Source of the DNA: a virus
Lineage: Duplodnaviria > Heunggongvirae > Uroviricota > Caudoviricetes
IMG/VR virus record: IMGVR_UViG_2778261268_000002
Length of the DNA: 64,000 bases
Strand: one strand, 5' to 3'
Part shown: positions 8,552 through 10,913 of the stretch, in pieces
Position numbering within the stretch: position 1 is the stretch's first letter
Layout of the letters: every line of letters starts with the position of its first letter
Made by a program: the position numbers and the translations under genes
The notes under the pieces: model-generated
Told to the model about the DNA's origin: nothing
The model's input: only the letters and a program-made list of their open reading frames with translations
Database searches by the model: none

Positions 8552-9915
8552 TGTCTGCATCCCCTCTTGAATCCATGCCAAATTCCCTTAGTGCAGAACA
8601 AGCTGTACTTGGTGGCTTAATGCTTGATAACTGCCGATGGGATGAAGTTGCAGATCGTATAGTTGCTGATGATTTTTATACCAGTGCTCATCGTGAAATT
8701 TTCAGTGAGATGGAGAGGTTATTAAGTCATGGCAAACCGATTGATTTGATAACACTTGCTGAAGCACTTGAACAGAACGGTAAATTAGAACGCGCCGGTG
8801 GTTTTGCGTACCTTGCGGAGATGTCAAAGAACACGCCCAGCGCGGCAAATATTTGTGCTTATGCGGATATCGTTCGTGAACGCGCGGTTGTTCGTGAAAT
8901 GATTTCCGTCGCAAATGAAATAGCTGAAGCTGGATATGCGCAGGATGGCAGGGGCAGCAATGAATTGCTGGATATGGCCGAGCGCCGCGTTTTTGAAATA
9001 GCTGAAAAACGACAAAAGAGCGGTAGTGGTCCAAAAGATATCGCCAGCATTCTCGATGCAACGGTATCTCGCATAGAAGAGTTGTTTCAGCGACCGCATG
9101 ATGGTGTAACGGGGCTTGATACCGGATTTACCGATCTCAATAAGAAGACGGCAGGACTTCAGGCGTCCGATCTCATTATTGTCGCCGCCCGCCCATCGAT
9201 GGGGAAGACTACGTTTGCGATGAATCTCGTCGAAAATGCCGCAGTCCGTAACGATAAGCCCGTATTGGTTTTTAGCCTTGAGATGCCGAGCCACCAACTG
9301 ATGATGCGCTCACTGGCTTCTCTTGCACGCGTTGATCAGACTCGTATTCGAACAGGGCAACTTAACGACGAGGATTGGGCGCGGGTTTCTGGCGCAATGG
9401 GGATTCTGTTGGACAAGCAGAATATTTTTATTGATGACTCAAGCGCCCTGACACCTACAGAGCTTCGTTCCCGCGCTCGTCGTGTTTATAAAGAAAATGG
9501 TGGTTTGAGCATGATTATGATCGACTACCTGCAACTTATGCGCGTCCCCGAGCTGCAAGATAACCGAACGCTGGAAATTGCCGAGATTTCTCGCTCACTG
9601 AAGGCTTTGGCGAAGGAATTACAAGTACCGGTGGTGGCATTGTCACAACTTAATCGATCGCTTGAACAGCGTGCGGACAAACGACCGGTAAATTCAGATT
9701 TACGTGAATCAGGAGCAATTGAGCAGGACGCAGACCTGATCATGTTTCTGTATCGCGACGAAGTTTATCACCCGGATAGCGAAATGAAGGGCATTGCCGA
9801 GGTAATTATCGGAAAGCAACGAAATGGCCCAATTGGCACGGTGAGATTGGCTTTTAACGGCCAATACTCACGGTTTGATAACTATGCCGGTGCTGACTGG
9901 CAAGAGGATTATTAA
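8551..9915 (+). CDS. ban: replicative DNA helicase, DnaB family
   Basis: DnaB N-terminal domain and Walker A (ARPSMGKTTFAMNL), Walker B (IMIDYLQLM), RecA-like C-terminal motifs; ATG at 8551 preferred over GTG at 8545. Confidence 0.9.
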   Translation: MSASPLESMPNSLSAEQAVLGGLMLDNCRWDEVADRIVADDFYTSAHREIFSEMERLLSHGKPIDLITLAEALEQNGKLERAGGFAYLAEMSKNTPSAANICAYADIVRERAVVREMISVANEIAEAGYAQDGRGSNELLDMAERRVFEIAEKRQKSGSGPKDIASILDATVSRIEELFQRPHDGVTGLDTGFTDLNKKTAGLQASDLIIVAARPSMGKTTFAMNLVENAAVRNDKPVLVFSLEMPSHQLMMRSLASLARVDQTRIRTGQLNDEDWARVSGAMGILLDKQNIFIDDSSALTPTELRSRARRVYKENGGLSMIMIDYLQLMRVPELQDNRTLEIAEISRSLKALAKELQVPVVALSQLNRSLEQRADKRPVNSDLRESGAIEQDADLIMFLYRDEVYHPDSEMKGIAEVIIGKQRNGPIGTVRLAFNGQYSRFDNYAGADWQEDY

Positions 9916-10913
9916 TGCAATGGAATGAGGAAAAGCCGATGAACATCCTGATCATTGGGCGAAAATTTGAAGCCATCAGTGATGTGAAAACATATACGGA
10001 AATGTGGGCTTATAACCTGGCCTGCGCCTTTAGTGAGTCAGGGGTAACATTGCAATACCATCGTCCATATTCCCCTGGCGTCGAAAGCCCGGAGGATTAT
10101 GTTGAAGCTGTGTTGACTGCTGCGACCGCATGTTCTGCGAAGGCCATTTTGGCACCAGGATTGAGGTATTTTACTACGGTACCCAGGGAAATAGGCATGC
10201 AACTGTGTCGCCGATTCTCTGGATGGGTAGCCCAGGTATATGACGGTTCTATGCTGGATTCGGCACCAGTCGATATTACTTTTACTGTCCGCGATGATAC
10301 CTGGCGGTACCTGGATAATCCCGGCAGGTTAGAGCGTCATAATCGCTTTAACAAACATGTTGGATGGGCAGCGAATCAGGAACTGTTCCATCTGGAAACC
10401 AAGACAGACGATGTTCTGCGTATTTTTGTAGACCACGCTGCATTTGATGTTAGTGGGTTTGATCACTCCTTAAGTATCCTTATGAACCTTCAGCGTCTGA
10501 CCGTTCCGTATGAGGCCAGAACGTTGACCGATGACGGATTGGTTACCATTGATCCGGGGAATATTTCGGTAACTCCATACAGACGGACGCCGGTACCAGC
10601 AACCGAATTTGCAGCTGAATTGCGTAAGAGTGACGTTTTTATCGTTACGCATCCCGAAAGCCTTGGATTAACTGTTCTTGAGGCGGCAATGTGTGGGGCG
10701 TTGATATTAACGCCGCCAGATTGCCTTCCGCCAGATCGCCTGGCTTTGGTGAACCATATGGTTATCAAGTCGCGGATTGATTGGGATGAGGTTATTGCTC
10801 GCGTTGATCGCGTGAAAAATGCTGAAAAGGTCCAGTGTCACACCTGGTCGGCAATCGCGGAAAAGATGCTTGAGACGTTTATCACGCAGAAACCGTCGCG
10901 AGGTAACGGATAA
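9915..10913 (+). CDS. hypothetical protein with GT-B glycosyltransferase-like E-x7-E motif
   Basis: C-terminal VFIVTHPESLGLTVLEAAMCGALILTP resembles the GT4 nucleotide-sugar binding signature; otherwise no match recalled. Confidence 0.4.
   Translation: MQWNEEKPMNILIIGRKFEAISDVKTYTEMWAYNLACAFSESGVTLQYHRPYSPGVESPEDYVEAVLTAATACSAKAILAPGLRYFTTVPREIGMQLCRRFSGWVAQVYDGSMLDSAPVDITFTVRDDTWRYLDNPGRLERHNRFNKHVGWAANQELFHLETKTDDVLRIFVDHAAFDVSGFDHSLSILMNLQRLTVPYEARTLTDDGLVTIDPGNISVTPYRRTPVPATEFAAELRKSDVFIVTHPESLGLTVLEAAMCGALILTPPDCLPPDRLALVNHMVIKSRIDWDEVIARVDRVKNAEKVQCHTWSAIAEKMLETFITQKPSRGNG

What the first reader, a model, noticed from the sequence alone, without database searches (positions are those of the whole stretch)
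9915..10913. GT-B glycosyltransferase-like E-x7-E motif in the gene downstream of ban
PESLGLTVLEAAMCGALILTP resembles the nucleotide-sugar binding signature of GT4 enzymes. A phage glycosyltransferase here could modify DNA or cell-surface receptors (superinfection exclusion).
Basis: partly seen in the sequence, partly recalled or inferred. Interest (0 to 1): 0.4.

Follow-up and report, generated by a model that had tools for sequence, protein, structure and literature searches.

The report
P1 dbn: glycosyltransferase in four-gene cassette
The gene after ban is phage P1's dbn, a sugar-transferring enzyme already annotated as a "possible glycosyltransferase", but it appears to belong to a four-gene sugar-adding cassette shared by many unrelated phages, and what that cassette glycosylates is unknown.

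Summary
Window 9915-10913 (+) is a 332-aa ORF directly after ban, and PESLGLTVLEAAMCGALILTP is aa 247-267 (nt 10653-10715). The window is a P1-like phage-plasmid and the ORF is P1 dbn / P7 glt, annotated "possible glycosyltransferase" since 2004, so the bare glycosyltransferase (GT) call is not new.

The new part is context. In a P2-like contig, a lambdoid contig and the isolated coliphage IME392, the dbn homologue lies in an overlapping cassette pmgO-pmgP-dbn-pmgQ. P1 carries the same partners 6-8 kb away:
- PmgO and PmgP are sialyltransferase/Maf-like.
- PmgQ is a GT8-type GT-A enzyme with a DxD motif.

The PmgO/P + PmgQ pair is widespread in phages and often sits between capsid and tail genes. 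Dbn is an accessory member.

All four genes are dispensable for plaque formation. My best guess is stepwise glycan building on a phage-made target, probably virion proteins. Envelope glycan remodelling is a serious rival. DNA glycosylation is unlikely.

The parts
9915..10913 (+). dbn (P1 Dbn / P7 Glt) coding sequence, 332 aa; GT-B fold, GT4-like glycosyltransferase
9939..9941 (+). Alternative start codon (M9), preceded by GAGGA at 9927-9931
   Evidence: Most full-length non-P1 homologues start here with M[KR][IL]L..G. Residues 1-9 of the model are not structured and strand 1 starts at residue 10. Sequence read.
10431..10436 (+). D173-H174, a family-specific invariant pair at the end of the first strand of the C-terminal domain
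   Evidence: 129/130 members keep both residues. Both are invariant in alignments A2 and A3. Strand E168-173 in the model.
10656..10682 (+). E-x7-E motif (E248...E256) within THPESLGLTVLEAAMCGAL
   Evidence: Position. E248 kept in 129/130 and E256 in 130/130 members. The segment aligns to the Pfam Glycos_transf_1 core and to the corresponding E-x7-E segment of E. coli WaaG.
10935..10961 (.). GC-rich hairpin between the convergent genes dbn (+) and gene 5 (-); probable bidirectional terminator closing the ban-dbn transcription unit
   Evidence: RNA fold -24.2 kcal/mol, z = -3.4. Gene 5 homologue at 10961-11593 (-).
8545..9915 (+). ban (DnaB-like helicase); its stop codon overlaps the dbn start
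5365..5392 (.). Divalent C1 repressor operator (P1 Op72 / Oban) at the head of the ban-dbn operon
   Evidence: A perfect match and a 2-mismatch match to the C1 operator consensus. The window holds 14 matches against 0.19 expected. P1 annotation.
15752..15770 (+). Late promoter LPpmgL, mapped from P1
   Evidence: Window 15700-15870 is 100% identical to P1 78443-78613. P1 annotation.
16849..17511 (+). pmgO, cassette partner; sialyltransferase/Maf (MptE)-like
   Evidence: phrog_4603 'alpha-2,3-sialyltransferase', E 4e-74. Pfam MptE-like is sub-threshold. Homologues lie next to dbn homologues in L092, L093, L254 and L256.
17409..18035 (+). pmgP, cassette partner; paralogue of PmgO
   Evidence: hhalign against the PmgO family gives probability 94%. 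phrog_2111, with a weak match to phrog_4603. 54% identical to the L092 partner.
18017..18709 (+). ppp (lambda-type Ser/Thr phosphatase); it occupies the slot between pmgP and pmgQ where dbn lies in other phages
   Evidence: P1 annotation. Cassette order in other phages is O-P-dbn-Q.
18706..19407 (+). pmgQ, cassette partner; GT8-type GT-A glycosyltransferase with DxD (D79-L-D81)
   Evidence: Family invariants are DLDT, GD (148-149), S174...K176 and H-G-x-P-x-P (208-213). The profile hits GT8 structures at E 2e-6. AF2 pLDDT 94.1. Foldseek finds GT8 enzymes. phrog_1962 'glycosyltransferase'.

Best explanation
dbn encodes a soluble cytoplasmic glycosyltransferase of the GT-B fold, of the retaining GT4/GT5 type. 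It would bind a nucleotide sugar in the cleft between its two Rossmann domains, with E248 and E256 of the E-x7-E motif contacting the donor.

It does not work alone. It is the accessory third enzyme type of a mobile phage cassette whose core is one or two sialyltransferase/Maf-like proteins (PmgO, PmgP) plus a GT8-type GT-A enzyme (PmgQ). In P1-like genomes the cassette is split: dbn is translationally coupled to ban in the C1-repressed early operon, and pmgO-pmgP-(ppp)-pmgQ lie 6-8 kb away behind the late promoter LPpmgL.

I infer that the enzymes act in sequence, each adding one sugar from host nucleotide-sugar pools, to build a short glycan during lytic growth. P1 encodes no sugar-nucleotide synthesis genes that I saw. 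In E. coli K-12 the likely donors are UDP-hexoses, with CMP-Kdo for the sialyltransferase-like members.

The acceptor is not established. My preferred guess is phage virion proteins.

Shown here: the fold, the motif conservation and the cassette linkage. Inferred: catalytic activity, retaining chemistry, donors, order of action and target.

Sub-confidences: GT-B glycosyltransferase 0.9; member of the four-gene cassette 0.85; virion proteins as target about 0.4.
For: Fold and motif:
- AF2 model pLDDT 87.6, pTM 0.85, with two beta/alpha domains.
- Near-invariant polar residues across 130 members: D173, H174, D183, H246, E248, E256.

Cassette linkage:
- Overlapping pmgO-pmgP-dbn-pmgQ follows terminase and portal in the P2-like contig L254 and occurs in E. 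coli phage IME392.
- The lambdoid contig L092 has the same set plus one extra GT-A-like gene, just upstream of terminase.
- A PmgQ-like gene sits directly downstream of the dbn-like gene in the jumbo-phage contigs. Overall, 12 of 15 non-window dbn-like loci have a PmgQ-like gene within 10 kb.
- The window's own PmgO, PmgP and PmgQ are 39%, 54% and 47% identical to the L092 partners.

For a virion target:
- In 62 dereplicated viral loci chosen by PmgQ-like, the PmgO/P-PmgQ pair repeatedly lies between the major head protein and tail tubular proteins A/B of T7-like modules, or after HK97-type capsid genes.
- A PmgQ homologue plus an MptE-like gene lie among the head-tail connector genes of a siphophage.
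- P1 pmgO-Q lie behind a late promoter.
- The nearest solved relatives of PmgQ are protein glycosyltransferases: Skp1 alpha-GalT, glycogenin and GlyE.
- Virion glycosylation by phage glycosyltransferases has precedent in mycobacteriophages (Freeman 2023, as cited in PMC12619734).
- Knockouts of dbn, pmgO, pmgP and pmgQ plaque normally, as expected for a decorative modification.
Against: - No activity, donor or acceptor has been measured.
- Pfam Glycos_transf_1 is sub-threshold for this protein.
- The Arg/Lys pair expected after the first C-domain strand in GT4 enzymes (expectation from my memory) appears to be replaced by D173-H174, so the donor chemistry may be atypical.
- Two recent high-resolution P1 virion structure papers do not mention glycans.
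- In IME392 and EP_H11 the cassette lies among early or DNA-metabolism genes, not structural genes.
- dbn itself is in the early C1-controlled ban operon.
- One dbn homologue sits inside a bacterial kps-type capsule locus, which shows that the family can act on polysaccharide.
- 28/62 loci with a structural neighbour is not clearly above what any phage gene would give.
- PmgO and PmgP hit Pfam MptE-like only below threshold.
Confidence: 0.45

Rival explanations
1. Envelope glycan remodelling. The cassette modifies a host surface glycan (LPS core, O-antigen, ECA or capsule) on the cytoplasmic face of the membrane. This would mask or destroy receptors, either for superinfection exclusion or to stop progeny adsorbing to debris. 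P1's own receptor is the LPS core.
For: - A dbn homologue (42% identity) lies next to a genuine MptE-like gene (44.5 bits) inside a kps-type capsule locus with KpsM/T-, KpsC/S-, KpsD- and KpsE-type genes.
- Jumbo-phage clusters pair the dbn-like gene with NeuB/CMP-transferase, GlmS-like, UDP-glucose dehydrogenase, epimerases and pyruvyl transferase.
- PHROGs files PmgQ under 'moron, auxiliary metabolic gene and host takeover'.
- dbn is in an early operon.
- GT4, GT8 and Kdo-transferase-like enzymes are the classes that build LPS cores (established knowledge).
Against: - Both operons are C1-repressed or late in P1. Expression in the lysogen is therefore not expected, and late expression leaves little time to replace existing LPS.
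- The PmgO/PmgQ pair sits inside the late structural operons of lytic T7-like podophages, where seroconversion makes little sense.
- hhalign of Dbn, PmgQ and PmgO against E. coli WaaG, WaaJ and WaaZ gave only superfamily-level or no similarity.
- No membrane-spanning Gtr-type components were seen.
Confidence: 0.25
2. Another cytoplasmic target. The cassette glycosylates a host protein or small molecule, for example a defence component or a receptor protein, as host takeover or counter-defence.
For: - Early-region location in IME392 and EP_H11, next to a Lon-inhibitor-like gene.
- Dispensable in laboratory hosts.
- GT8 and Maf-type enzymes are typically protein glycosyltransferases (established knowledge for Maf).
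Against: - No specific link to any defence system; PADLOC gave no hits.
- Nothing in the neighbourhoods points to a particular target.
- Four transferases suggest an oligosaccharide rather than a single inactivating sugar.
Confidence: 0.12
3. DNA glycosylation. Dbn transfers a sugar to a modified base in phage DNA to evade restriction, as T4 alpha/beta-glucosyltransferases and the HY126 arabinosyl-5-hydroxycytosine system do.
For: - dbn is co-transcribed with a replicative helicase.
Against: - These hits rank below many GT4/GT5 enzymes.
- Such systems need a hydroxymethyl- or hydroxy-pyrimidine pathway (PMC13326640). None is annotated in the P1 regions read or known for P1 (established knowledge; I did not scan the whole window for one).
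- The dbn knockout shows no change in antirestriction or plaquing.
- The partner genes sit in structural modules of other phages.
Confidence: 0.04

Closest known systems
P1 Dbn (AAQ14048) / P7 Glt (AAQ07543)
   Same: It is the same gene: 97.8-98.2% DNA identity, the same position after ban, and convergent with baseplate gene 5. It is already annotated 'function unknown, possible glycosyltransferase' or 'putative glycosyltransferase'.
   Different: Nothing of substance differs. The window copy is an allele from a P1-like E. coli phage-plasmid. The P7 annotation starts 45 codons later, which would remove strand 1 and helix 1 of the fold.
Retaining GT-B enzymes of CAZy GT4/GT5 (BshA, PimA/PimB', GlgM, sucrose-phosphate synthase, WaaG/WaaB, glycogen synthase)
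   Same: Two-Rossmann GT-B fold, E-x7-E in the C-terminal domain, and a linker motif resembling the GT4 interdomain linker.
   Different: - Only 9-14% identity to these enzymes.
- Pfam GT1 match is sub-threshold.
- It is short (about 320 aa).
- There is no glycine-rich loop after strand 1.
- An invariant D-H pair sits where GT4 enzymes usually have basic residues (the expectation is from my memory).
- It forms a small distinct family of about 370 clusters among 1.8 billion representatives.
Mycobacteriophage virion glycosylation (Che8-type; Freeman et al. 2023)
   Same: Phage-encoded glycosyltransferases that are dispensable for growth. Here the partner genes are embedded in capsid/tail modules.
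   Different: - No glycan has been shown on any virion carrying this cassette.
- The hosts here are Gram-negative.
- I could not compare the enzyme families directly because the paper is not held.
Flagellin glycosylation islands (Maf transferases plus accessory glycosyltransferases)
   Same: Sialyltransferase/Maf (MptE)-like proteins combined with other glycosyltransferases. Some jumbo-phage clusters also carry NeuB and a CMP-sugar synthetase.
   Different: PmgO and PmgP are only about 200 aa, which I recall is much shorter than Maf proteins, and they match Pfam MptE-like below threshold. P1 encodes no nonulosonic acid pathway that I saw.
Phage DNA glycosyltransferases (T4 AGT/BGT; HY126 arabinosyl-5hoC transferase)
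   Same: GT-B fold, phage-encoded.
   Different: No base-hydroxylation or hydroxymethylation genes were seen, and the knockout has no antirestriction phenotype.
Seroconverting GtrABC systems of temperate phages
   Same: A temperate phage carrying sugar-transfer genes that are not needed for growth.
   Different: Gtr systems use a flippase, a GT2 bactoprenol glucosyltransferase and a membrane GT-C enzyme, and are expressed in the lysogen (established knowledge). Dbn and PmgQ model as compact globular GT-B and GT-A folds with no Gtr-type membrane component, and the P1 genes are repressor-controlled or late.

Membership tests
GT-B fold glycosyltransferases, GT4-like (Pfam Glycos_transf_1) | Two Rossmann-like beta/alpha/beta domains with an interdomain cleft | tested here: met
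GT-B fold glycosyltransferases, GT4-like (Pfam Glycos_transf_1) | E-x7-E motif in the C-terminal domain, conserved in relatives | tested here: met
   E248 in 129/130 and E256 in 130/130 members. The segment aligns to the corresponding E-x7-E segment of WaaG.
GT-B fold glycosyltransferases, GT4-like (Pfam Glycos_transf_1) | Sequence score above the curated family threshold | tested here: not met
   PF00534 scores 23.8 bits against a 26.4-bit gathering score. NCBIfam gives nothing significant. A 98%-identical cluster representative carries a precomputed PF00534 hit, and RefSeq names it a GT4 family protein. I therefore file it as GT4-like, not as a proven GT4 member.
GT-B fold glycosyltransferases, GT4-like (Pfam Glycos_transf_1) | Basic residues after the first C-domain strand that bind the donor diphosphate | tested here: inconclusive
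   The family has invariant D173-H174 there. hhalign to WaaG aligned only the E-x7-E segment, so the equivalence could not be fixed.
GT-B fold glycosyltransferases, GT4-like (Pfam Glycos_transf_1) | Glycosyl transfer with retention of configuration | not testable with these tools
   Needs enzyme assays and product NMR.
GT8 (for partner PmgQ) | GT-A fold with a DxD motif and a C-terminal H..G..[KR]P motif | tested here: met
   Invariant DLDT and H-G-x-P-x-P, with R212 nearly invariant. The profile hits GT8 structures at E 2e-6. Foldseek finds GT8 enzymes. There is no Pfam hit.
Maf / MptE-like (PF01973) or sialyltransferase-like (for partners PmgO, PmgP) | Significant match to the family model | tested here: inconclusive
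   - Pfam gives 21-24 bits against a 34.6-bit gathering score.
- PmgO matches phrog_4603 'alpha-2,3-sialyltransferase' at E 4e-74.
- hhalign to a genuine MptE-like protein gives probability 75% for PmgO and 16% for PmgP.
- PmgO and PmgP are paralogues at probability 94%.
Phage DNA-hypermodifying glycosyltransferase systems | Co-encoded pathway that makes a hydroxymethylated or hydroxylated pyrimidine acceptor | not tested
   No such gene is annotated in the P1 regions read. I did not scan the whole window for one. The knockout has no antirestriction phenotype.
GtrABC seroconversion | GtrA flippase, GT2 GtrB and membrane GT-C GtrC | tested here: not met
   Dbn is a GT-B and PmgQ a small GT-A enzyme. 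No Gtr-type neighbours were seen.
Virion glycosylation systems | Glycans covalently attached to capsid or tail proteins, dependent on the phage glycosyltransferases | not testable with these tools
   Only positional evidence is available. P1 structure papers do not mention glycans.

The most novel reading that the evidence does not exclude
P1, and hundreds of other phages of Gram-negative hosts that carry the PmgO/P-PmgQ pair (with Dbn as an add-on), glycosylate their own virion proteins with a short glycan containing a Kdo- or sialic-acid-type sugar. This would be a widespread, so far unrecognised virion glycosylation system outside the actinobacteriophages, sitting in four 'putative morphogenetic / unknown' genes of a classic model phage.
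Probability: 0.3. Interest if true: 0.7.

Novelty: new member of a known kind. Interest (0 to 1): 0.45.

Why it matters
The bare call that dbn is a glycosyltransferase has been in GenBank since 2004 and adds nothing. What could matter is the link between four P1 genes of unknown function (dbn, pmgO, pmgP, pmgQ) and a portable cassette. I found that cassette in P2-like, lambdoid, IME392-like and jumbo phages. Its core pair is widespread in phage structural modules.

If the cassette decorates virions, this bears on:
- immune recognition and pharmacokinetics of therapeutic coliphages;
- P1-like phage-plasmids, which 9-14% of the complete E. coli genomes searched carry.

If it remodels LPS, it bears on receptor masking. 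Either way the question is directly testable, because single-gene P1 knockouts already exist (PMC9024508).

Tried and rejected
- Sequence searches of Dbn against PDB, as a single sequence and as a profile, gave only noise or a Rossmann-level KtrA match.
- NCBIfam gave nothing for any of the four proteins, and PADLOC gave nothing.
With A1 it found only two loci, both P1-like fragments.
- Two viral-contig scans for dbn relatives returned almost only P1-like elements.
- hhalign of Dbn, PmgO and PmgQ against E. coli WaaG, WaaZ and WaaJ gave only motif- or superfamily-level similarity. I dropped the idea of a specific relationship to LPS-core enzymes.
- PmgP against PDB gave nothing.
- A PmgQ homologue in the Pantoea floridensis chromosome is an orphan between lpdA-like and acnB-like genes and is uninformative.
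- The P1 genome paper (PMC523184) and Freeman 2023 (PMC10527164) are not held.
- Literature searches found no paper linking dbn with pmgO/P/Q or assigning any of them a function.
- Lysogenic conversion as the primary role was judged unlikely, because both transcription units are C1-controlled or late.
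Full report
**What is at the coordinates**

Window 9915-10913 (+) is a 332-aa ORF. 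Its ATG overlaps the stop codon of the DnaB-like helicase gene ban (8545-9915, TAATG). The only E-x7-E in the protein is E248...E256.

The bare pattern is not informative, because 73% of shuffles of the protein contain one. The surrounding segment is informative. It matches Pfam Glycos_transf_1 at E 3.7e-5, although at 23.8 bits it is below the 26.4-bit curated threshold. Both glutamates are kept in 129 and 130 of 130 full-length relatives, which go down to about 25% identity.

**Identity of the gene**

The window is a P1-like phage-plasmid of E. coli. The ORF is 97.8-98.2% identical to dbn of P1 and glt of P7. The GenBank notes for those genes read "function unknown, possible glycosyltransferase" and "encodes putative glycosyltransferase". 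RefSeq names it "glycosyltransferase family 4 protein", while PHROGs lists it as phrog_2518, function unknown.

It is a common gene. Megablast finds it in 477 of 5426 complete E. coli genomes, almost always on plasmids.

**Fold**

An AlphaFold2 model built on 19 homologues has pLDDT 87.6 and pTM 0.85, and shows two beta/alpha domains.
- These are enzymes of the retaining GT4/GT5 families, a classification I supply from established knowledge.
- Foldseek agrees.

**The family**

A full HMMER scan of 1.84 billion representatives finds only 370 clusters at E <= 0.001. This is a small family, mostly 300-340 aa long.

Near-invariant positions are D110, W151, D173-H174, D183, H246, E248, G251, E256 and G261. 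The D-H pair sits just after the first strand of the C-terminal domain. From memory, GT4 enzymes carry the diphosphate-binding Arg/Lys there. I could not fix the equivalence, because hhalign to E. coli WaaG aligned only the E-x7-E segment.

Most full-length non-P1 homologues start at the position of M9 (M[KR][IL]L..G). In the window, both ATG 9915 and ATG 9939 have good Shine-Dalgarno sequences. The P7 annotation starts 45 codons later and would delete strand 1 and helix 1.

**Context in other elements: the main new result**

Looking up contigs that encode distant relatives showed that the dbn-like gene is rarely alone.

| Element | Arrangement |
|---|---|
| Lambdoid contig L092 (56% identity) | Five overlapping co-directional genes just upstream of terminase: two MptE-like genes, a 193-aa GT-A-like gene, the dbn-like gene and a 223-aa gene |
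| P2-like contig L254 (46%) | Four overlapping genes directly after terminase and portal: PmgO-like, PmgP-like, dbn-like, PmgQ-like |
| Coliphage vB_EcoM_IME392 | The same four contiguous genes |
| Coliphage EP_H11 | A collinear layout by annotation; its partner genes were not scored |
| Large phage contigs (87-305 kb) | The dbn-like gene lies inside sugar clusters (nucleotidyltransferase, pyruvyl transferase, methyltransferase; in one case NeuB/CMP-transferase, GlmS-like, UDP-glucose dehydrogenase, epimerases). It is directly followed by one or two copies of the 223-aa family |

Blasting these partner proteins back against the window found them 6-8 kb from dbn:
- 16849-17511 = P1 PmgO (39% identity to the L092 partner);
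- 17409-18035 = PmgP (54%);
- 18706-19407 = PmgQ (47%).

Overall, 12 of 15 non-window dbn-like loci have a PmgQ-like gene within 10 kb.

In P1 the slot between pmgP and pmgQ, which dbn fills in other phages, is occupied by the phosphatase gene ppp. The tail/baseplate block 5-6-24-7-25-26, plus pmgL-N, separates dbn from pmgO.

**What the partners are**

PmgQ:
- The family has invariant DLDT, GD, S..K and H-G-x-P-x-P motifs.
- Its profile hits GT8 structures: Skp1 alpha-galactosyltransferase at E 2e-6, then GlyE and glycogenin.
- Its model (pLDDT 94.1) matches GT8 enzymes by Foldseek.
- PHROGs calls it "glycosyltransferase".

PmgO and PmgP:
- They are paralogues (hhalign probability 94%).
- They match Pfam MptE-like only below threshold.
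- PmgO is phrog_4603 "alpha-2,3-sialyltransferase" at E 4e-74.
- One recent PGAP annotation names one of the genes in this stretch [quoted passage not shown].

P1 thus carries four glycosyltransferase-like genes: one GT-B, one GT8-type GT-A and two sialyltransferase/Maf-like. No paper I could search links them or assigns any of them a function.

**Core and accessory members**

In the 80 best loci:
- none had a dbn-like gene within 8 kb;
- about 30 had a PmgO/P-like gene, usually immediately upstream.

The pair PmgO/P + PmgQ is therefore the widespread core, and Dbn is an add-on found in a subset. Consistent with this, the pmgO-Q region is found in 751 complete E. coli genomes and dbn in 477.

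**Where the core pair sits**

- In a recurrent group of T7-like podophage loci the gene order is: head assembly protein, major head protein, a 92-aa gene, PmgO/P-like, PmgQ-like, tail tubular A, tail tubular B, internal virion protein.
- In other loci the PmgQ-like gene follows portal and an HK97-type major head protein.
- One PmgQ homologue, with an MptE-like neighbour, lies among the head-tail connector genes of a siphophage.
- At least 28 of 62 dereplicated loci have an annotated head or tail gene within five genes. This is a lower bound. It is not by itself clearly above what any phage gene would show.

**Regulation in the window**

- A perfect divalent C1 operator lies at 5365-5392 (P1 Op72), upstream of the tRNA-ban-dbn unit.
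- A strong hairpin at 10935-10961 closes that unit against the convergent gene 5.
- The gene 26 / pmgL intergenic region is 100% identical to P1, so the late promoter LPpmgL maps to 15752-15770 and operator Op82 to 15785-15801.
- P1 also annotates a C1 operator (Op83) and a predicted promoter just before pmgN-pmgO. My consensus search at three mismatches or fewer did not recover it in the window.

Both transcription units are thus lytic-cycle units, not obviously expressed in the lysogen.

**Genetics from the literature**

- CRISPRi knock-down scored dbn, pmgO, pmgP, ppp and pmgQ as non-essential, and the same table cites single-gene deletions (Gonzales et al.) as non-essential for each (PMC10695390).
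- In that deletion study, 24 of 29 deletion mutants showed no plaquing defect and no change in antirestriction. [quoted passage not shown]
- dbn is transcribed during P1vir infection (bioRxiv 2025.12.28.696737).

**Mechanism and target**

I infer that Dbn is an active retaining glycosyltransferase. It would use a host nucleotide sugar and add one residue to a glycan started or extended by PmgO, PmgP and PmgQ.

The target is open. I favour virion proteins (about 0.4), for these reasons:
- the position of the core pair inside late structural operons of lytic phages;
- the late promoter in P1;
- the protein-glycosylating nature of the nearest GT8 and Maf relatives;
- the dispensability of all four genes;
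- the mycobacteriophage precedent (cited in PMC12619734).

Against this:
- two recent P1 virion structure papers do not mention glycans;
- IME392 and EP_H11 carry the cassette in an early-looking region;
- dbn itself is in an early operon.

The main rival (about 0.25) is remodelling of an envelope glycan. It is supported by a dbn homologue inside a kps-type capsule locus next to a genuine MptE-like gene and by the sugar-nucleotide clusters of the large phages.

DNA glycosylation is unlikely (about 0.04):
- the known systems need a hydroxylated pyrimidine pathway (PMC13326640);
- none is known in P1;
- the knockout has no antirestriction phenotype.

**Verdict**

As stated, the finding is already known. 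The added value is the cassette linkage, which turns four unexplained P1 genes into one testable unit. I rate it a new member of a known kind (phage-encoded glycosylation systems) and of moderate interest.

Noticed in passing
window 18017-18709 (ppp), compared with L254 4346-7047 and L256 5900-8589: In P1-like genomes the lambda-type Ser/Thr phosphatase gene ppp sits exactly between pmgP and pmgQ. That is the slot dbn occupies in the contiguous cassette of the P2-like and IME392-like phages. This suggests a rearrangement that displaced dbn to the ban operon.
   Followed up: partly
L002 (P7 AF503408) 3136-3999, compared with window 9915/9939: The P7 glt CDS is annotated from an internal ATG and is 288 aa long. 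That start would remove strand 1 and helix 1 of the GT-B N-domain, so it is probably a mis-called start.
   Followed up: partly
window 6051-8265: There are four tRNA genes upstream of ban: Asn-GTT, Thr-TGT, Ser-TGA at 6768-6854, and a CAT-anticodon tRNA at 8190-8265 (trnI in P1). The P1 reference annotates only Asn, Thr and Ile here, so the tRNA-Ser is extra.
   Followed up: no
window 7118-8162: A small membrane-like ORF (78 aa) and a 275-aa lipoprotein-like protein lie between the tRNA-Ser gene and the CAT-anticodon tRNA. Related plasmids carry a gene annotated as an SPFH domain protein in the matched 12-kb stretch. In reference P1 the stretch upstream of trnI holds plp, upl and tciA-C, so this is a variable accessory slot in the ban operon.
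   Followed up: no
window 5365-5392 and 5555-5577: The perfect divalent C1 operator (Op72) is followed about 170 nt downstream by a strong terminator-like hairpin with a T-run. P1 annotates a dicF-like region at the equivalent place. Transcription of ban-dbn would have to read through it.
   Followed up: no
window, whole (for example 2089, 15785, 19409, 19458, 21551, 36925, 54823): The 17-nt C1 operator consensus has 14 matches at three mismatches or fewer, against 0.19 expected by chance. This maps the C1 regulon of this element.
   Followed up: partly
window 16107-16685 (pmgM) and 21045-21551 (pap): PmgM gives a sub-threshold VRR-NUC nuclease match, and PGAP names it 'VRR-NUC domain-containing protein'. 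Pap matches the HAD phosphatase domain of polynucleotide kinase-phosphatase (45 bits). Neither looks 'morphogenetic'.
   Followed up: no
L094 4801-17063: A bacterial kps-type capsule locus with KpsM/T-like, KpsC/S-like, KpsD-like and KpsE-like genes also contains a 696-aa GT1 enzyme, a GT4-like N-domain protein, an MptE-like protein, a dbn homologue (42% identity) and a beta-helix protein. This is a chromosomal relative of the phage cassette.
   Followed up: partly
L255 2114-4967: The large terminase gene of a large phage contig appears split, with a faint intein-splicing domain match in the second part.
   Followed up: no
L254 7644-11708: A 1354-aa KAP NTPase gene lies next to the cassette in the P2-like contig. 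It is probably a defence-type accessory gene.
   Followed up: no
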